Assembly (NCBI GenBank): GCA_037574385.1
Contig: GCA_037574385.1_4529.1
DNA length: 64,000 nt
Direction: 5' to 3' (one strand)
Source of the DNA: a phage
The notes below the pieces were generated by a model, which did no database searches, was not told the origin of the DNA, and saw only the letters and a list, made by a program, of their open reading frames with translations. Each line of letters starts with the position of its first letter. Position 1 is the stretch's first letter. The position numbers and the translations under genes are program-made. Shown here piece after piece: positions 26,352 through 32,901 of the stretch.

Positions 26352-26900
26352 TTAACGAGCCCATTTGATAATTTCTGTAATCAAATTATTACGTTCGCTT
26401 GCATTAAATCCTATAACTTTGTTAGCACCATCATGATTAAGTAATTGATACGTTTGGATTTTGTTATGAATTGCAAACTCTTCAAAATGTGAAATGACTG
26501 TATTAAAACCGAATGAAGACAAAGTAATAAGGTCGTCTTCAAAACTTTCAGTCATTTCGTTACGTGTTAAAATAATTGTGAACACATCATGGTTTTGGCA
26601 AAGACGAATATAATCCTGTTCATAAACGTCAAGAACCGAGTCCGCATCTTGTCGAATACGTCCATAAACCCAGTTACTAATATATCCACGGTCTAATAGA
26701 TAAATCTTAGTAGGGTCTAAATAATTCAACATCGTTTCGAAACAGCCAACTTCATTTCGAGACTTAACATCGAAACGCCCATCAACTGTTCGTTTAGGGA
26801 AATCAATCTTTACATATCTTTCACTAATTTCCATTATGTCATTAATGAAAGTTGTTTTACCAGCATTATCCGGTCCGTCTACTAAAATAATTTTAGCCAT
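26352..26900 (-). CDS. P-loop nucleotide kinase (thymidylate/dNMP kinase-like)
   Basis: 182 aa; Walker A VDGPDNAGKTT and DRGYIS lid-like motif; at the T4 beta-gt locus between uvsX and 42. Confidence 0.6.
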   Translation of the reverse strand: MAKIILVDGPDNAGKTTFINDIMEISERYVKIDFPKRTVDGRFDVKSRNEVGCFETMLNYLDPTKIYLLDRGYISNWVYGRIRQDADSVLDVYEQDYIRLCQNHDVFTIILTRNEMTESFEDDLITLSSFGFNTVISHFEEFAIHNKIQTYQLLNHDGANKVIGFNASERNNLITEIIKWAR

Positions 26901-26901
26901 T

Positions 26902-27801
26902 TTATTCCTCGATTACGACATCTTCGTATTTAGGTATATTATACGGTGAAGAAATTAAAGCATTAAAGTAGATGAACTCACCAAGACCTGGATGGAATAC
27001 TTCTTCAGGATTTTCGAAATATTGAATCTTCGGACGTCCTTTAAGAATTTGATAGTACTCAGTTTTAGTTGGTTTAAAAATTCGAATCAGCGCTTCTTCA
27101 GGGTACTTATTTCTGTCGAAGCTAATATTTGGATCTGTTATATAAAGCGGTTGGCCTAATTGAATTGCACATTCAACCACTTGTTCAAAACGATAGCACG
27201 GGTCACTAATTCGAAATGGATGAAAAATACCATCTAGATGAATAGGAGCCAAATCACCTACAAGACGCTGCATGATGGAAGGACGTATAACTTTCTGCGT
27301 TACGATAATCTTATTACCATCTGCACCTGCGTTAACCAGCACTTCCTTTTGACGTTCATTCAACACAGTAGTTTGAAGTGAACGATTAACCGACAACATA
27401 TCGGTTTTTAAGAATTCATCAATATAAAAGCGTGGTTTATTAGGGTCTGTAGTGATATTGAAATTGAATTCCACATCAAAAGCGCCATCATATCCAGTGA
27501 TATCTGTGATTAGAAAATCACAATCATAATAAGCAATTAATGAATCAACCACAAATTCATTTTCAGACCAGAAATATTTACGAGTGTTATACGCGTTATC
27601 TTTATACCATAATGGAACAAACTTAAATTCCGGGAAAAGACGTTCACATTCTTTAATATCAGATGCATTACGTGGATATGTAATCACATCACCCGGATTA
27701 GCACGGTGCAAATGAAGTTGGAAGTTGCCATCCTTAAGGATAGCATACTGTCCAGTTTCATAAGACCGCATACTCAAGATTGGTACGCGGAAAATAGCCA
27801 T
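26902..27801 (-). CDS. hypothetical protein (299 aa) at beta-glucosyltransferase locus; candidate DNA-modification enzyme
   Basis: Translationally coupled to gene 42; no similarity to recalled T4 beta-gt; function by synteny only. Confidence 0.55.
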   Translation of the reverse strand: MAIFRVPILSMRSYETGQYAILKDGNFQLHLHRANPGDVITYPRNASDIKECERLFPEFKFVPLWYKDNAYNTRKYFWSENEFVVDSLIAYYDCDFLITDITGYDGAFDVEFNFNITTDPNKPRFYIDEFLKTDMLSVNRSLQTTVLNERQKEVLVNAGADGNKIIVTQKVIRPSIMQRLVGDLAPIHLDGIFHPFRISDPCYRFEQVVECAIQLGQPLYITDPNISFDRNKYPEEALIRIFKPTKTEYYQILKGRPKIQYFENPEEVFHPGLGEFIYFNALISSPYNIPKYEDVVIEE

Positions 27802-28517
27802 TAGTCAAGGAATCCTTTAACATAATCAAAATCACGTTCAAACACATGGGCACTTACCATGGTATGAGTATAATCACCAACTTCTACACCGCATTCGTTA
27901 GCGATATAATGAAGTAATTTTCCTTGGAGATAAAAATCCAACTGCATAACAACAGCACAGTTCTGAGAACGCATATGGCAGTGCGTATAAAGCTTACCAT
28001 CACGAATATAATAAGTAACTGAGTCAGTACATGGATATTCAAGCGTTTCGTCTGAATCAAGCAAAGCCTGATCAGAACTTTCTAGAATTTGGAACACAAC
28101 TCTTCGGGAGTTAGGCTTCTCTTTAAGTTCTTTTAGAAGAGCTGGTAATTGGGCCGCAATGCGAGGACCATAGAAAGTGTTGAAGTTCGCCGGCAAAACA
28201 TCTGATTTTGGTTTAGAAATAAATTTAGCGACATTAGGATATGCCTTAAACGCTTCTTCTGCGTTGGTACCACCAGAAATCATAAACTTCCAGAAGTCTT
28301 CGGCATATTCATAAGAGATGCGGTTAATACGTGGGTCGGTCATTTTGAATGATGATGGAGTGTCAACAACTACTGTCATAGACCCAATTTCATTACAACG
28401 TCCAATACGAGAATCAGTTACGAATTCCGGGTTTTCTAAAATTTCACGATTGACTGCTTTAAATGCGGTTTGAAAATCTGCGGCTTTGATATATTTCATT
28501 GTGTTATGTTTTCCCAT
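27801..28517 (-). CDS. 42: deoxycytidylate 5-hydroxymethyltransferase (thymidylate synthase fold)
   Basis: 238 aa; RRVVFQI...YPCTDSVTYYIRDGKLYTHCHMRSQN parallels T4 gp42 catalytic region; position between uvsX and 43. Confidence 0.8.
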   Translation of the reverse strand: MGKHNTMKYIKAADFQTAFKAVNREILENPEFVTDSRIGRCNEIGSMTVVVDTPSSFKMTDPRINRISYEYAEDFWKFMISGGTNAEEAFKAYPNVAKFISKPKSDVLPANFNTFYGPRIAAQLPALLKELKEKPNSRRVVFQILESSDQALLDSDETLEYPCTDSVTYYIRDGKLYTHCHMRSQNCAVVMQLDFYLQGKLLHYIANECGVEVGDYTHTMVSAHVFERDFDYVKGFLD

Positions 28518-28559: not shown

Positions 28560-28799
28560 TTATTTGAATTTCTTGACAATGTTGATATAACGTAAAGCTT
28601 CAGCATCGATACTTCCAAGGACACTATGAAGAAATGCATCAGCGTAGTATTCCAATTGAATAGGTTCTTTAATCACTTTAGCCGCTTTGGTTTCAAACAG
28701 GCCCATCAGGGCCTTTTTAAGAATTTGTTCGTTGCTGTTAATTTTCGTAGTCAAAATCTCTTCATTAAGTTGGTGGTTAAAAGTTTTTCTAGAAATCAT
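28560..28799 (-). CDS. hypothetical protein (79 aa)
   Basis: ATGA-coupled to upstream gene. Confidence 0.45.
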   Translation of the reverse strand: MISRKTFNHQLNEEILTTKINSNEQILKKALMGLFETKAAKVIKEPIQLEYYADAFLHSVLGSIDAEALRYINIVKKFK

Positions 28800-29956
28800 T
28801 CCGGGTACCTCAAAGCGTCATCAGAGTTAGTTATATCAATAATAGATATAGAGTTTTCTGCTAACCCATTTTTAGATAATTGACGTTTATAATATCTTTC
28901 ACAATATGTACACGTTGACCCACAGATTTCATTAGCACAATCAAAATCAGGATGTCTGAACCACCTTTTTTCTAAAAAGCCATCTAACAAAGAGGTTTCA
29001 ATATTTACTGTATGTGAAAACTCAGTCTCATTTTCAAGAGTGAAAATAGTCTCTAAAGGCTTCCACAGTTCTAACAAATTACCTTCAAACTTTTCAGAAG
29101 CGTATGCTTCAAGAACTTTCAAAATGTAGTCTGTGCTACCTGTACGTCCTGAAACTTTGAATTGAGTGATACCAATATCATTATAAAGTTTCAAATCTTG
29201 AGGACGAACAAAACGAGTTCTCAACCAGTTAAATGGGTCTGTATCACGAGCTTTAATACAGTGCTGCATTGGATATCCATTTAAGGATTTAGCATCATCA
29301 GCTGTAACATCAGTACTATGGAAAATATAGCAAGAGTCACGATAGCTACAATGTGTTGTATACCCTTTACCAGCATTAGAACAGAACTCATTTACAAGAA
29401 CTTCAAATATTATATTGTTCTTATTGCAAAACTCTGCTGCACGCTTCAGGAAAGAAACTGAACGGTTCTTATGAATTCCACAGCAGACCTTTTTGATATT
29501 ATATTGGTCATGCAAGTATTTGATTTGAGTTACGGCATCGACATGTAGAATTGTTGAAACTTCAATCTCAATATCTTTATTGACTTCACGAACAATTTCC
29601 ATAACAACAGGGTTAGCGATAGTAATACGCCATACGCCTATTGACCAAAGATACTGAACATAATCCTGAATAGCTTTCTTCTTCCACTCAACTAGTTCTC
29701 TTTTTGAACCAGGATTTATCGTGTTGAGTGTATAGTTAAAGCAAATACCTAATTCGTTACAACGTTTAACGTAGTCTTCTAACATCTTTTTGTCAACGTC
29801 AGGAAGCCTAAAATCAGGTCTGGCTGCTACAAAAGCCATTTCTCTTGTAGAGCCATATACTTCGTTTATCAAGCTATTAGGATAGGTTTTATTGAGCTCT
29901 ACGATTTTATCAAGAAGAGCTAAATCAAAATTCGTTCCGATTTTAAAAGTATTCAT
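28796..29956 (-). CDS. Cys-rich putative Fe-S protein (386 aa), unknown function
   Basis: Track ORF (GTG) trimmed to first ATG; Cys cluster VCCG...EFC...EFCSNAGKGYTTHCSYRDSC and C-terminal CGSTCTYC (CX3CX2C). Confidence 0.55.
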   Translation of the reverse strand: MNTFKIGTNFDLALLDKIVELNKTYPNSLINEVYGSTREMAFVAARPDFRLPDVDKKMLEDYVKRCNELGICFNYTLNTINPGSKRELVEWKKKAIQDYVQYLWSIGVWRITIANPVVMEIVREVNKDIEIEVSTILHVDAVTQIKYLHDQYNIKKVCCGIHKNRSVSFLKRAAEFCNKNNIIFEVLVNEFCSNAGKGYTTHCSYRDSCYIFHSTDVTADDAKSLNGYPMQHCIKARDTDPFNWLRTRFVRPQDLKLYNDIGITQFKVSGRTGSTDYILKVLEAYASEKFEGNLLELWKPLETIFTLENETEFSHTVNIETSLLDGFLEKRWFRHPDFDCANEICGSTCTYCERYYKRQLSKNGLAENSISIIDITNSDDALRYPE

Positions 29957-30012
29957 TTTTTTGCATCTCACGTTAATTGATGCGATGGTTTTTGCAGGTC
30001 TTACTTAAATTA

Positions 30013-30399
30013 TTATAGATTCGGTTTATATGATTTAAATGTTTCGAATTCGCCTTTATTCATAAGAGCTTTGAATTCGTCAGGACGCATAGCTTTGTCG
30101 TCGATAATCCAATCATATACTGGTTTATGTGTTAGCAAATTATGGTACTTCAAGCCAATGTTTGCCAAGTTCTGAATCAGACTTGGGAGAATGTCAATTG
30201 CTATACGTCCAGGACCTACTGACTTCATACCACGAGCAGTGTAAAGCGTTATGGTATGCCCTGCATCATACAGGGCATTAATGGCAGACACCATTTCGAC
30301 GTCTGGTTTGAAGTTCACGTAATCGCGATTGTTATTCCATTCTGTGATGCAATCATCGACATCAAAACAAAGATTAAGCATGTTTTCTACACGGTGCAT
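30013..30399 (-). CDS. HAD-superfamily phosphatase (small; start uncertain)
   Basis: N-terminal LCFDVDDCIT (HAD motif I-like), LYTARG, YDWIIDDKA; chosen ATG overlaps upstream stop (TAATG); alternative ATGs at 30414 and 30381. Confidence 0.55.
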   Translation of the reverse strand: MHRVENMLNLCFDVDDCITEWNNNRDYVNFKPDVEMVSAINALYDAGHTITLYTARGMKSVGPGRIAIDILPSLIQNLANIGLKYHNLLTHKPVYDWIIDDKAMRPDEFKALMNKGEFETFKSYKPNL

Positions 30400-32084
30400 T
30401 AGATTTGTTCCCATTGATGAGTGATATCGCCACCGATTGGACGATAAGAAACACCAGTTTCTTTATCAGTTAGTACCCATTTACCAGGATTTTTTGTAAT
30501 CAGAGTAGCCGTTACAGGTTCTGCTACGTCATAACTAATAGAGCCGTCTTGAAGTACACGGCCCATGTTACGTAATTGCTTAGTTAGAAGTTCCATACCT
30601 TTATAATATGCGGCTACCGCTTTAAGTGGATTATTCTTGAAATAACCACCTAATGCAATCCAGATAATTGCCACTGCCAAATGATGATACTCGTTAAACG
30701 AACTCATCTTTCCATATTTGTAAACTAATGGATTGATGTTAATAGTCACATTACAAGTTGTTTCATCAATAATAAACTGGCCCCAGGTCGGATTAGCGTT
30801 GAATTCATCATAACCTGAAACAGCATAAAGCACTTTAGCTTCATCATACAATTTTGGCCCGTAAATCTTGGTTTCACCAAAATATCCACGAGGGTCGATA
30901 AACTTGACTTCGCCGTTATCAGTAATCATAGTATTACTGAAGTTCGGGTCACCGTGAATAACAGAGTACTGTCCCTGAGAACGGTTATGATAACGAATAA
31001 GGTGTTCTAAAGCTTGTTTCAGCATTGGCTTCAGACGTCCAATCTTAGTGTAGTTCACGTGTGTGATTTTACCAAATGAATCAATCAATGGCTGAATGCT
31101 TTCACAACGATCAATAACTTTCGTATAGAACTCTTTAGTGAAATCACGACGAACAGTTTCAGGACTTACAAAATAAATGTCTGTGTTAAATTTCAGTGCA
31201 TCTAAAATTGCATCAATAATTTGTGGACGAGCAAGACTTGATTTGGATTTAATATATTCAAATGCTGGCTTACCTTTAATGCGTTCCATTTCAAAGTTAT
31301 TTTCATTAACAGAAACTAACTGAGGAACTGAATCTGATTTCACTTTCAAATACCATGAAATCTCATCTTTTTGAAGAGCTCGACCTTGTTCAGTTAATGC
31401 GAATTTAGTTACAGTTTCTTCACCAATTTCAACCGCATTAAAACTACGATTAAGTTCACGAACTTCATGAGCTTTTTCAAGTTTAGGCATATCACCAAGG
31501 TCGATGATATTCATAAGCTCTGATTTATTGAATGCGCCGCTGTAAAGGAATTCTACAAAATCACGTCCTTTGCAGTATTCGTGAATTTCCTCATCAGTAG
31601 AACCCATGTAGAATTCCCAGTCTTTGAACTGATAAATTCCTACAACATTACCGCCTGTTGCACCTACATTAGTGATATTTTCACCATCGAAATTATATCG
31701 ACATTCATCACCTTTAACATAGATTGCGTTAACATTCCAAGACCATGAACCAAAATCAGGAATAATATCACACCAGTTAACAACTACGTTATGGCCGTCT
31801 AAATCTTTGTGTAATTTAGCAAGAGCATAAGCAGAACCATACGCTTCATCAACTGTACGAATAGTCACATTGAACCCTTCTTGCTCACAATAAGCTCGAA
31901 CAGTTTCAGCAAATTTTGAATGAACTACTACAATAATTTCATCTGCGCCAAGGTCAGAATAAATTGTATACAAATTGCTCAGAATAGTGTCTTGTTTATA
32001 GTTCACAAGAACTTTTGGAATATGGTGAGTAATTGGATATAAACGAGTTGCCAATCCAGCACCAAGAATAACAGCTTTTTTCAT
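30399..32084 (-). CDS. bifunctional sugar-1-phosphate nucleotidyltransferase / APH-type sugar kinase
   Basis: 561 aa; N-terminus ILGAGLATRLYPIT (RmlA/GlmU-type G-x-G-T-R-L-x-P-x-T); C-terminal VIHGDPNFSNTMI and IDPRGYFG (APH/choline-kinase catalytic loop). Confidence 0.7.
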   Translation of the reverse strand: MKKAVILGAGLATRLYPITHHIPKVLVNYKQDTILSNLYTIYSDLGADEIIVVVHSKFAETVRAYCEQEGFNVTIRTVDEAYGSAYALAKLHKDLDGHNVVVNWCDIIPDFGSWSWNVNAIYVKGDECRYNFDGENITNVGATGGNVVGIYQFKDWEFYMGSTDEEIHEYCKGRDFVEFLYSGAFNKSELMNIIDLGDMPKLEKAHEVRELNRSFNAVEIGEETVTKFALTEQGRALQKDEISWYLKVKSDSVPQLVSVNENNFEMERIKGKPAFEYIKSKSSLARPQIIDAILDALKFNTDIYFVSPETVRRDFTKEFYTKVIDRCESIQPLIDSFGKITHVNYTKIGRLKPMLKQALEHLIRYHNRSQGQYSVIHGDPNFSNTMITDNGEVKFIDPRGYFGETKIYGPKLYDEAKVLYAVSGYDEFNANPTWGQFIIDETTCNVTININPLVYKYGKMSSFNEYHHLAVAIIWIALGGYFKNNPLKAVAAYYKGMELLTKQLRNMGRVLQDGSISYDVAEPVTATLITKNPGKWVLTDKETGVSYRPIGGDITHQWEQI

Positions 32085-32112: not shown

Positions 32113-32139
32113 ATTGTACACTATTCTAGTTAAAGCATT
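32113..32139 (-). promoter_or_regulatory. middle-type promoter (MotA box ATGCTTTA, 12-nt spacer, TACAAT) upstream of the nucleotidyltransferase/kinase gene
   Basis: Minus strand ATGCTTTAACTAGAATAGTGTACAAT, 25-30 nt upstream of ATG at 32084. Confidence 0.4.
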
Positions 32140-32269
32140 CATACTTTGCCTGTAGACCAATCATAATCCATCCAATTACAAGTGTTGGAATCATTACTGG
32201 AGCCGTTAAGCTCCAGTAGATAGTCATGACAAGCATCAATAGTAAAAGTCCTATTGTTATTGCTTTCAT
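32126..32269 (-). CDS. small hydrophobic peptide (47 aa)
   Basis: Not in track; ATG overlaps the stop of the SIS gene (ATGA); predicted membrane helices. Confidence 0.35.
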   Translation of the reverse strand: MKAITIGLLLLMLVMTIYWSLTAPVMIPTLVIGWIMIGLQAKYECFN

Positions 32270-32901
32270 TGTTCGCCTCGTAACATGGCACCTAGTGCAC
32301 CGCCAGGGTGGAACTTAAGGAAATCATTAGAGGTAAATCCGCGTTCAGACGAAAGGTTGATAGCGAACGTATCGATAAGCGCTAACAACAATGTAGTGGA
32401 CATAGTCGGAGCTAAAGAGTTCTCGTCAACTTCTACCGCGATACCGGTACAGAATGTATAATCAAAAAGAGCTTCGTATTCTTGTGGAATGTCAGGGTTA
32501 CAATGTAACAGAATCTGTTTAACCTGAGGACGAATCATACGAAGATGTTTAGCAACACCTATCATTTCTTCAGTCTTACCAGAACGACTGATGTGAACTA
32601 ATACATCATTAGGTGCAATGAATCCTGCATCACCGTGAGAATAATGCCCAGTGTTCAAATACATGCTAGGAATACCTAGTGAAGCAAAAGTCTCGGAAGC
32701 TTTAGTTGCGATATTAGCGTTCTTACCAACACCTGTAATAATTACACGACTTTCATAATTACTCAGTCCTGGGCGTCGAAGAGTTTCTAGAATAGCATTA
32801 TAACGAGCAGGGTTTTGACTAATTACTTTGGCCATAGCGGCCAAAGAAGAAGCTTGTTTTATGATTGCGTCAATAGCGATAGTGATTGGTGTAGTTTTCA
32901 T
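32266..32901 (-). CDS. SIS-domain sugar-phosphate isomerase (KdsD/GutQ-like arabinose-5-phosphate isomerase, no CBS domains)
   Basis: 211 aa; ITGVGKNANIATKASETFASLGIPS, ISRSGKTEE, LAPTMSTT, FHPGGALG match KdsD SIS-domain motifs. Confidence 0.7.
   Translation of the reverse strand: MKTTPITIAIDAIIKQASSLAAMAKVISQNPARYNAILETLRRPGLSNYESRVIITGVGKNANIATKASETFASLGIPSMYLNTGHYSHGDAGFIAPNDVLVHISRSGKTEEMIGVAKHLRMIRPQVKQILLHCNPDIPQEYEALFDYTFCTGIAVEVDENSLAPTMSTTLLLALIDTFAINLSSERGFTSNDFLKFHPGGALGAMLRGEQ

What the first reader, a model, noticed from the sequence alone, without database searches (positions are those of the whole stretch)
30399..32084. Unusual fusion of a sugar-1-phosphate nucleotidyltransferase with an APH-fold anomeric kinase
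The N-terminal roughly 230 residues carry the RmlA/GlmU-type motif; the C-terminal roughly 300 carry HGDxxxxN and IDxxG catalytic-loop motifs of aminoglycoside/choline-kinase-like sugar 1-kinases (as in AmgK/NahK). A single polypeptide would channel free sugar to sugar-1-P to NDP-sugar, the salvage-type logic of AmgK-MurU but fused and phage-encoded.
Basis: partly seen in the sequence, partly recalled or inferred. Interest (0 to 1): 0.75.

Follow-up and report, generated by a model that had tools for sequence, protein, structure and literature searches.

The report
Phage UDP-arabinose kinase–nucleotidyltransferase fusion (AfhE)
This gene of an RB69-like phage encodes a two-domain enzyme that helps make the activated arabinose used to decorate the phage's DNA; the fusion is real, but a 96%-identical enzyme (AfhE of phage HY126) has already been described and tested, and it works on arabinose 5-phosphate, not on free sugar.

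Summary

The window is an RB69-like Mosigvirus. The protein equals RB69 gp53 plus gp52, which are split in the RefSeq record. It is 96% identical to the syntenic 562-aa protein of phage HY126. The adjacent HAD phosphatase is 100% identical to its HY126 counterpart.

Lee et al. (NAR 2026) report, citing He et al. [quoted passage not shown] AfhF, the HAD phosphatase, removes the 5-phosphate between the two steps.

The "free-sugar salvage, direct channelling" logic is not. The route is de novo: Ru5P → Ara5P → Ara-1,5-P2 → Ara-1-P → UDP-Araf. This is the logic of HldE/GmhB, not of AmgK-MurU.

Novelty: already known. Interest: low.

Two by-products deserve more attention than the finding:
- Giant-virus proteins that fuse HAD, SIS, nucleotidyltransferase and kinase in one chain.
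- A U32 homologue, next to a chorismate mutase in relatives, that may be an anaerobic cytosine hydroxylase.

The parts
30399..32084 (-). 561-aa bifunctional enzyme, orthologue of HY126 AfhE (equals RB69 gp53 + gp52): arabinose-5-P 1-kinase plus UDP-arabinofuranose pyrophosphorylase
   Evidence: ORF. 96% identical to the syntenic HY126 XAN60479.1. 97% and 98% identical to RB69 gp53 and gp52. Function taken from PMC13326640 section 27.
31470..32084 (-). N-terminal sugar-1-phosphate nucleotidyltransferase domain (aa 1 to about 205; GAGLATRL aa 8-15 = nt 32040-32063)
30564..31442 (-). C-terminal APH/choline-kinase-fold kinase domain (aa about 215-507; HGDPNFSN = nt 30933-30956; IDPRG = nt 30885-30899)
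30402..30563 (-). Conserved C-terminal tail of about 55 aa (TKNPGKW..D.ETG..Y.P...W), function unknown. It is present in the T4-like-phage members of the 35-sequence alignment and absent from the more distant 520-550-aa homologues, most of them unnamed metagenomic proteins.
   Evidence: Alignment A1, columns 660-742. Model pLDDT 76-85 with short strands.
30013..30414 (-). Small HAD-type phosphatase (RB69 gp51; orthologue of HY126 AfhF), which removes the 5-phosphate of arabinose-1,5-bisphosphate. Its start codon (30414, or more likely 30399) overlaps the stop of the kinase-transferase gene.
   Evidence: 100% identical over 128 aa to HY126 XAN60478.1. NCBIfam TIGR01689 capsule biosynthesis phosphatase E 4e-13, below cut-off. 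TAATG overlap. Function from PMC13326640.
32266..32901 (-). SIS-domain D-arabinose-5-phosphate isomerase (RB69 gp55): Ru5P to Ara5P
   Evidence: Pfam SIS E 1e-9. NCBIfam KpsF/GutQ 9e-32 and KdsD 4e-30. RB69 annotation.
32126..32269 (-). 47-aa hydrophobic ORF between the isomerase and the kinase-transferase gene (position of RB69 gp54). ATGA overlap with the isomerase stop. Function unknown.
   Evidence: A 144-nt CDS is annotated at the same position in HY126 and Virsaitis27.
27801..28517 (-). Thymidylate-synthase homologue, 5-hydroxy-dCMP synthase (RB69 gp48). It makes the acceptor base.
   Evidence: E 8e-161 and about 98% identical to PDB 9iqc. The 9iqc sequence is 100% identical to the HY126 protein. 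Function from the PMC13326640 abstract.
26902..27801 (-). Putative DNA arabinosyltransferase 1 (RB69 gp46:47), the consumer of UDP-Araf
   Evidence: Position and length match RB69 p046+p047. Assignment from PMC13326640 Table 1. No Pfam hit.
26352..26900 (-). Thymidylate-kinase-like nucleotide kinase (RB69 gp45)
   Evidence: PMC13326640 Table 1.
28796..29971 (-). Peptidase_U32-family protein (RB69 gp50). It lies in the same operon and its role is not established; see Noticed in passing.
   Evidence: Pfam PF01136 E 7e-11. 222 phage records, all at 80% identity or more.

Best explanation
The ORF encodes the AfhE-type bifunctional enzyme of the pathway that makes arabinosyl-5-hydroxycytosine DNA in RB69-like phages.

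Proposed sequence of steps:
1. The adjacent SIS isomerase converts host ribulose-5-P to D-arabinose-5-P.
2. The C-terminal APH-fold kinase domain uses ATP to phosphorylate the anomeric O1, giving arabinofuranose-1,5-bisphosphate.
3. The small HAD phosphatase, whose start codon overlaps this gene's stop codon (suggesting translational coupling), removes the 5-phosphate to give Araf-1-P.
4. The N-terminal RmlA/HddC-like nucleotidyltransferase domain condenses Araf-1-P with UTP to give UDP-arabinofuranose.
5. The phage glycosyltransferases use UDP-arabinofuranose to arabinosylate 5-hydroxycytosine in DNA.

Starting from the 5-phosphate keeps the pentose in the furanose ring, because O5 is blocked. 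This gives UDP-Araf without a mutase.

Shown here: the ORF, both folds, the catalytic motifs, the synteny, and 96% and 100% identity to the HY126 proteins at the corresponding positions.

Taken from the literature: the substrates, the order of steps and the use of UTP.

Inferred: that HY126 XAN60479.1 and XAN60478.1 are the proteins named AfhE and AfhF, and the furanose-locking rationale.

For: Orthology: 96% identity to the syntenic 562-aa HY126 protein and 100% for the HAD phosphatase. PDB 9iqc is 100% identical to the HY126 ThyA homologue and 98% identical to this window's. Identity to RB69 gp53 and gp52 is 97% and 98%.

Genetic evidence: the 54%-identical Thanatos TH1_060 is required for phage propagation (PMC12838424).

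Evidence that the four activities belong together: fusions in the order HAD-SIS-nucleotidyltransferase-kinase occur in single polypeptides of 890-955 aa, one of them in a giant-virus context.

A phosphatase accompanies the nucleotidyltransferase-kinase in three forms: a small HAD (this window), a fused HAD_2 domain (giant virus) and an annotated histidine phosphatase directly downstream in Tenacibaculum phage PTm5.

The best profile match of the N-domain is HddC, the nucleotidyltransferase of the analogous heptose-1,7-bisphosphate pathway. Among the structural neighbours of the kinase domain is MTR kinase, a 1-kinase of a 5-substituted pentofuranose.
Against: I could not read the primary biochemical paper (He et al. 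2026) or Mahler et al. 2025. The substrate and the order of steps are second-hand, from Lee et al.

Table 1 of Lee et al. itself still lists the alternative order (phosphatase makes free Ara, kinase makes Ara-1-P).

Genomic context cannot distinguish the two orders.

Pfam's APH model is below its cut-off for this protein (14.2 against 23.2 bits).

Purified Thanatos TH1_060 made no NDP-xylose from xylose-1-P with any NTP. This is uninformative for arabinofuranose-1-P but is not positive support.

Nucleotide specificity was not assessed here.
Confidence: 0.85

Rival explanations
1. Free-sugar route (the first reader's salvage logic, and the order still shown in Table 1 of Lee et al.). The HAD phosphatase first makes free D-arabinose from Ara-5-P. 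The kinase domain then phosphorylates free arabinose at C1, and the nucleotidyltransferase domain acts directly on that product, so the two domains catalyse consecutive steps.
For: Several structural neighbours of the kinase domain act on unphosphorylated sugars: glucosamine kinase 6hwj, maltokinase 5jy7 and fructosamine kinases. Table 1 of PMC13326640 lists 'dephosphorylates Araf5p to Ara' and 'phosphorylates Ara to Araf1p'. The gene set is equally compatible with this order.
Against: The text of the same paper, citing biochemistry on HY126 AfhE and AfhF, gives Ara-5-P as the kinase substrate and Ara-1,5-P2 as the phosphatase substrate. Free arabinose in solution is mostly in the pyranose form (established carbohydrate chemistry), whereas the DNA sugar is a furanose. 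The N-domain's closest profile match (HddC), together with the GmhB-like hit for the phosphatase reported by Lee et al., points to bisphosphate logic.
Confidence: 0.1
2. A LicC/LicA-type (LicCA-like) enzyme that activates a small alcohol such as choline or ethanolamine as a CDP-derivative, unrelated to DNA arabinosylation.
Against: The gene sits in one overlapping-gene block (ATGA and TAATG stop/start overlaps) with an Ara-5-P isomerase, a 5-hydroxy-dCMP synthase and a DNA glycosyltransferase. RB69-type DNA carries arabinose, not phosphocholine. The relatives are fused to SIS sugar-phosphate isomerase domains. The 96%-identical orthologue was assayed as an arabinose enzyme.
Confidence: 0.02
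3. Same pathway, but a different nucleotide carrier (CTP, GTP or dTTP instead of UTP).
For: The N-domain's closest relatives use GTP (HddC), CTP (LicC), dTTP (RmlA) or UTP (MurU) without clear discrimination. Lee et al. write 'NDP-arabinofuranose' in places.
Against: Lee et al., citing He et al., report UDP-D-arabinose pyrophosphorylase activity. The glycosyltransferases' structural neighbours mostly use UDP-sugars.
Confidence: 0.03

Closest known systems
AfhE of Escherichia phage HY126 (He et al., Nat Chem Biol 2026, as reported in Lee et al., NAR 2026, PMC13326640); equals RB69 gp52:53 and DLP3 gp82
   Same: Same architecture, length (561 against 562 aa) and gene order. 96% identity. The partner phosphatase is identical. 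Same host genus and same phage genus level.
   Different: 25 substitutions and one 1-aa indel, clustered at aa 241-264 in the kinase N-lobe. No catalytic-motif residue is affected.
HldE + GmhB (ADP-heptose) and HddA + GmhB + HddC (GDP-heptose) pathways (own knowledge of these pathways)
   Same: The same three-step logic. A sugar phosphate is phosphorylated at C1 to give a bisphosphate. A HAD phosphatase then removes the distal phosphate. A nucleotidyltransferase acts last. In HldE, as here, the kinase and the transferase are the two domains of one protein and catalyse steps 1 and 3. The N-domain's best profile hit is HddC.
   Different: The kinase is not homologous: ribokinase fold in HldE and GHMP fold in HddA, against the APH/choline-kinase fold here. 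The HldE transferase domain has a cytidylyltransferase-like fold, not RmlA-like. The sugar is a heptose, not a pentofuranose.
AmgK-MurU and NahK-type anomeric-kinase salvage
   Different: Those enzymes take a free recycled sugar, need no intervening phosphatase, and are separate proteins in the characterised systems. Here the substrate is a de novo sugar 5-phosphate and a phosphatase step intervenes.
LicC/LicA, and the LicCA fusion of Treponema denticola (Kent et al. 2004; own knowledge, paper not held)
   Same: The same two folds in the same N-to-C order in one polypeptide. LicC and LicA are among the best structural matches.
   Different: The substrate there is choline and the product CDP-choline, made in consecutive steps without a phosphatase.
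5-Methylthioribose kinase MtnK (PDB 2olc)
   Different: A stand-alone enzyme of methionine salvage. The 5-substituent is methylthio, not phosphate.

Membership tests
AfhE-type bifunctional Ara-5-P 1-kinase / UDP-Araf pyrophosphorylase (phage arabinosyl-5-hydroxycytosine pathway) | N-terminal nucleotidyltransferase and C-terminal APH-like kinase in one polypeptide | tested here: met
AfhE-type bifunctional Ara-5-P 1-kinase / UDP-Araf pyrophosphorylase (phage arabinosyl-5-hydroxycytosine pathway) | Close sequence similarity to the characterised HY126 protein | tested here: met
   96% identity over the full length to HY126 XAN60479.1. That this CDS is the one named AfhE is inferred: it is the only nucleotidyltransferase-kinase gene in the cluster.
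AfhE-type bifunctional Ara-5-P 1-kinase / UDP-Araf pyrophosphorylase (phage arabinosyl-5-hydroxycytosine pathway) | Synteny with the Ara-5-P isomerase, HAD phosphatase, ThyA-like 5-hydroxy-dCMP synthase and DNA glycosyltransferase | tested here: met
   The same order is seen in Virsaitis27 and PWKp16.
AfhE-type bifunctional Ara-5-P 1-kinase / UDP-Araf pyrophosphorylase (phage arabinosyl-5-hydroxycytosine pathway) | Ara-5-P 1-kinase and UDP-Ara pyrophosphorylase activities | not testable with these tools
   Known only from the literature on the orthologue.
Sugar-1-phosphate nucleotidyltransferases (Pfam PF00483; RmlA/GlmU/MurU/HddC/LicC fold) | G-x-G-x-R-L ... K signature, and a Pfam score above the gathering cut-off | tested here: met
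   GAGLATRL aa 8-15 and K24, invariant. 39.1 bits against a cut-off of 21.2.
Sugar-1-phosphate nucleotidyltransferases (Pfam PF00483; RmlA/GlmU/MurU/HddC/LicC fold) | Rossmann-like nucleotidyltransferase fold | tested here: met
APH / choline-kinase-like kinases (Pfam PF01636, protein-kinase-like clan) | Catalytic-loop HxDxxxxN and the metal-binding Asp of the (I/V)DxxG motif | tested here: met
   H377-G-D379...N384 and I396-D397-P-R-G400, invariant in 35 sequences.
APH / choline-kinase-like kinases (Pfam PF01636, protein-kinase-like clan) | Bilobal kinase fold | tested here: met
APH / choline-kinase-like kinases (Pfam PF01636, protein-kinase-like clan) | Pfam APH model above the gathering score | tested here: not met
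   14.2 bits against a cut-off of 23.2. Some homologues do carry a precomputed PF01636 hit. The domain is a divergent member recognised by fold and motifs, not by the Pfam model.
AmgK-MurU / NahK-type free-sugar salvage | The kinase acts on a free (unphosphorylated) sugar, and its product goes directly to the transferase | not testable with these tools
   The literature on the orthologue says otherwise. A conserved, coupled or fused phosphatase argues against it.
HldE (bifunctional heptose kinase / adenylyltransferase) | Ribokinase-fold kinase domain plus cytidylyltransferase-fold transferase domain | tested here: not met

The most novel reading that the evidence does not exclude
The nucleotidyltransferase-kinase pair may be the core of a portable four-activity cassette (isomerase, 1-kinase, distal phosphatase, nucleotidyltransferase) for making NDP-pentofuranose, with a reach well beyond T4-like phages.

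Two observations fit this. In giant-virus-type contigs and one eukaryote transcriptome, all four activities are fused in one 890-955-aa chain in the order HAD-SIS-nucleotidyltransferase-kinase. The phosphatase accompanying the pair takes three forms: a small HAD, a fused HAD_2 domain, and an annotated histidine phosphatase.

Within the T4-like-phage clade, the conserved 55-aa C-terminal tail might dock the separate phosphatase, so that the bisphosphate is handed from kinase to phosphatase to transferase.

None of this is stated in the papers I could read.
Probability: 0.35. Interest if true: 0.45.

Novelty: already known. Interest (0 to 1): 0.2.

Why it matters
UDP-arabinofuranose is not a normal enterobacterial metabolite. 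The phage must therefore bring its own route to it in order to coat every cytosine with arabinose and escape restriction and CRISPR nucleases. This enzyme carries two of the three steps after the isomerase, and its Thanatos homologue is essential for phage growth.

For the scan, the value is in calibration. Its pathway logic was wrong in the way that context predicts, given the adjacent isomerase and phosphatase. The enzyme has since been characterised by others.

Tried and rejected
- Single-sequence AlphaFold2 gave an unusable model (pLDDT 33.5). It was replaced by the alignment-based model.
- Sequence and profile searches of the PDB do not detect the kinase domain; only RIO2 appears, at E 0.07.
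- The afdb50 fold library was not available. I therefore could not measure how common this fusion is in cellular proteomes.
- The primary papers were not held: He et al. 2026 and Mahler et al. 2025, and Vences-Guzman 2017 on LicCA.
- No supplementary files were held for Lee et al..
- The literature search for 'AfhE/HY126' found only Lee et al..
- The Vibrio phage 6E35-1b homologue (28% identity) sits among QueC-like, radical-SAM and nicotinamide phosphoribosyltransferase genes. It has no annotated isomerase, phosphatase or ThyA homologue, so it does not inform this pathway.
- I considered a programmed frameshift as the reason for the RB69 gp52/gp53 split and rejected it. The gene is intact here and in 364 other records, and Lee et al. 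attribute the split to a sequencing error.
- The U32 protein has no PDB sequence match.
Full report
**1. What is there**

Window 30399..32084 on the minus strand is one uninterrupted 561-aa ORF. It has an ATG start and a GAGGA ribosome-binding site 7 nt upstream.

The window is a T4-like phage of the RB69 type (Mosigvirus). The 4.3-kb block around the ORF is 97-98% identical to more than 150 Escherichia and Shigella phage genomes. The next gene upstream is the gp43 DNA polymerase.

The ORF lies in a run of co-oriented genes, two of whose junctions have overlapping stop and start codons. In order:
- SIS-domain arabinose-5-P isomerase (32266..32901)
- a 47-aa hydrophobic ORF
- this ORF
- a small HAD phosphatase (30013..30399/30414; TAATG stop/start overlap)
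- a U32-family protein
- a 79-aa ORF
- a thymidylate-synthase homologue
- a glycosyltransferase
- a thymidylate-kinase-like protein

**2.

They are invariant in an alignment of 35 homologues reaching down to 28% identity, as are W104, D106, K227 and E241.

Pfam places the N-terminal 100 residues in NTP_transferase above its cut-off. The C-terminal half gets only sub-threshold kinase hits. PDB sequence and profile searches see only the transferase domain, with best hits HddC 1.7e-13 and LicC.

A single-sequence structure prediction failed (pLDDT 33). With the alignment the model is confident (pLDDT 92.9, pTM 0.89).

A conserved tail of about 55 aa (508-561) follows the kinase domain. It is present in the T4-like-phage members of the alignment and absent from the more distant 520-550-aa homologues, most of which are unnamed metagenomic proteins.

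**3. It is a known enzyme**

In the RB69 reference genome the gene is split into RB69p053 (aa 1-218, 97% identical) and RB69p052 (aa 219-561, 98% identical). Lee et al. (NAR 2026, PMC13326640) attribute the split to a sequencing error. They model gp52:53 as one protein with a nucleotidyltransferase N-domain and a kinase C-domain.

They further report, citing He et al. [quoted passage not shown] They also report that AfhF, a Mg2+-dependent HAD phosphatase, converts arabinofuranose-1,5-bisphosphate to arabinofuranose-1-phosphate.

I located HY126 (PP658200.1) through the PDB. Entry 9iqc, deposited as a "thymidylate synthase", is 100% identical to the HY126 ThyA homologue and about 98% identical to the one in this window.

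In HY126 the gene order is the same as here. The syntenic 562-aa protein is 96% identical to this ORF. The 128-aa phosphatase is 100% identical.

That these two CDSs are AfhE and AfhF is an inference, from their being the only proteins of that architecture in the cluster. I could not obtain He et al. or Mahler et al. 2025.

**4. How it most likely works**

Proposed route:
1. Ribulose-5-P to arabinose-5-P (SIS isomerase).
2. Arabinose-5-P to arabinofuranose-1,5-bisphosphate (C-terminal kinase domain, ATP).
3. Bisphosphate to arabinofuranose-1-P (HAD phosphatase).
4. Arabinofuranose-1-P to UDP-arabinofuranose (N-terminal transferase domain, UTP).
5. Transfer to 5-hydroxycytosine in DNA by the phage glycosyltransferases.

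The two domains thus catalyse the first and third of three steps. This is the arrangement of HldE with GmhB in ADP-heptose synthesis, built from unrelated kinase and transferase folds.

My inference is that starting from the 5-phosphate fixes the furanose ring, because O5 is blocked. This yields a furanosyl nucleotide sugar without a mutase. The structural neighbour MtnK, which phosphorylates O1 of a 5-substituted ribofuranose, is a useful analogue.

Independent support that the four activities form one pathway comes from distant homologues (30-35% identity). These fuse HAD, SIS, transferase and kinase, in that order, in one chain of 890-955 aa, with all motifs I inspected intact.

A phosphatase of one kind or another accompanies the pair elsewhere too: a fused HAD_2 domain in those proteins, and an annotated histidine phosphatase immediately downstream in Tenacibaculum phage PTm5, which is followed there by a ThyA homologue.

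Genetic evidence exists for the 54%-identical Thanatos TH1_060, which is required for phage propagation.

**5.

The "free sugar to sugar-1-P to NDP-sugar" salvage picture, modelled on AmgK-MurU, does not match the reported substrate (a de novo sugar 5-phosphate). Nor does it account for the intervening phosphatase.

The free-sugar order cannot be excluded from sequence alone, and it is still printed in Table 1 of Lee et al.. I keep it as a rival at about 0.1.

The fusion is also not unusual in this setting. tblastn finds it full-length in 364 phage records across Escherichia, Acinetobacter, Klebsiella, Vibrio, Serratia, Shewanella and others. The same fold order is known from LicCA (own knowledge).

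**6. Verdict**

The finding is a real feature, correctly delimited, with both folds and the sugar correctly guessed. It is already described and, for a 96%-identical orthologue, biochemically characterised. Novelty: already known. Interest: 0.2.

**7. By-products**

These are outside the finding and only partly followed up.

(a) Giant-virus four-domain fusions. The four-domain protein P0084 sits on a 103-kb contig next to MutS7-HNH, RNA polymerase Rpb2 and RNA_pol_N genes. This is a giant-virus context. I found no mention of it in the papers I could read.

(b) The U32-family protein (28796..29971).
- It is listed by Lee et al. only as "sugar or heterocycle reductase".
- It has homologues in 222 phage records, all at 80% identity or more, in phages of Enterobacterales and Shewanella, which are facultative anaerobes (own knowledge).
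- No Acinetobacter phage appears among the organism genera listed (ten named, seven more not shown), although 57-64 Acinetobacter phages carry the AfhE-like and ThyA-like genes.
- In Erwinia phage Virsaitis27 and Klebsiella phage PWKp16, the gene between U32 and the ThyA homologue is a bona fide AroQ chorismate mutase (Pfam CM_2, above cut-off).
- U32 proteins (UbiU/V, TrhP, RlhA) are linked to O2-independent, prephenate-dependent hydroxylation (PMC10990095; PMC6599085). For RlhA the product is 5-hydroxycytidine in rRNA (own knowledge).
- The ThyA-like 5-hydroxy-dCMP synthase needs O2 and flavin.
- A prephenate-dependent anaerobic back-up route to 5-hydroxycytosine is therefore a testable hypothesis.
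- In this window the syntenic 79-aa ORF is only 23-26% identical to those chorismate mutases and has no Pfam hit.

Noticed in passing
window 28796..29971 (-) and 28560..28799 (-); L008 4492-6002; L009 4504-5906: The U32-family protein in the arabinosylation operon is 80% or more identical in all 222 phage records that have it. The genera listed are all Enterobacterales or Shewanella (facultative anaerobes, own knowledge). No Acinetobacter phage is among the genera listed, although 57-64 Acinetobacter phages carry the rest of the pathway. In Virsaitis27 and PWKp16 the next gene is a true AroQ chorismate mutase (CM_2). Known U32 proteins are linked to prephenate-dependent, O2-independent hydroxylation (RlhA makes 5-hydroxycytidine, own knowledge). 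This suggests an anaerobic route to 5-hydroxycytosine alongside the O2/flavin-dependent ThyA homologue. The protein has Cys197/208/214/238 plus a C-terminal CX4CX3CX2C motif (345-357). The window's 79-aa ORF at the chorismate-mutase position has no Pfam hit.
   Followed up: partly
P0084 (L002 8001-10781), P0088, P0089, P0091, P0094, P0096, P0108: Proteins of 890-955 aa fuse HAD phosphatase, SIS isomerase, nucleotidyltransferase and APH-like kinase in one chain. Identity over the last two domains is 30-35%. P0084 lies on a 103-kb contig with MutS7-HNH, Rpb2 and RNA_pol_N, a giant-virus context. P0091 comes from a eukaryote transcriptome. This implies that a complete route from Ru5P to NDP-pentose can sit on one polypeptide.
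   Followed up: partly
P0104, P0110 (about 786 aa): Another variant has nucleotidyltransferase-kinase followed by a C-terminal cupin domain resembling mannose-6-phosphate isomerase (sub-threshold Pfam hit). This suggests the same kinase-transferase core is coupled to a different sugar-phosphate isomerase.
   Followed up: no
window 30402..30563 (-), aa 508-561 of the ORF: A conserved C-terminal tail (TKNPGKW..D.ETG..Y.P...W) is present in the T4-like-phage members of the alignment and missing in the more distant 520-550-aa homologues and in the four-domain fusions. Model confidence is moderate and its function is unknown.
   Followed up: no
L006 7001-9939 (Tenacibaculum phage PTm5): A 27%-identical nucleotidyltransferase-kinase is followed directly by an annotated histidine phosphatase and a ThyA/pyrimidine hydroxymethylase homologue. 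The module therefore recurs in a Bacteroidota phage with a phosphatase from a different superfamily.
   Followed up: partly
L001 6095-7781 (RB69 RefSeq NC_004928): The RB69 reference splits this gene into p053 and p052 at aa 218/219, almost exactly at the domain boundary. RefSeq labels the HAD phosphatase p051 'phosphoheptose isomerase'. Many relatives label the fusion 'bifunctional protein GlmU'. These annotations are misleading.
   Followed up: yes
window 32126..32269 (-): A 47-aa strongly hydrophobic ORF lies between the isomerase and the kinase-transferase gene, with an ATGA overlap to the isomerase stop. A 144-nt CDS is annotated at the same position in HY126 and Virsaitis27. Its function is unknown.
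   Followed up: no
PMC12838424 (Shewanella phage Thanatos): That paper reports UDP-xylose pyrophosphorylase activity for TH1_063, which it identified as a glycosyltransferase-fold protein, and none for the nucleotidyltransferase-kinase TH1_060. This is odd given the domain content and may reflect the use of xylose-1-P rather than arabinofuranose-1-P as the test substrate.
   Followed up: no
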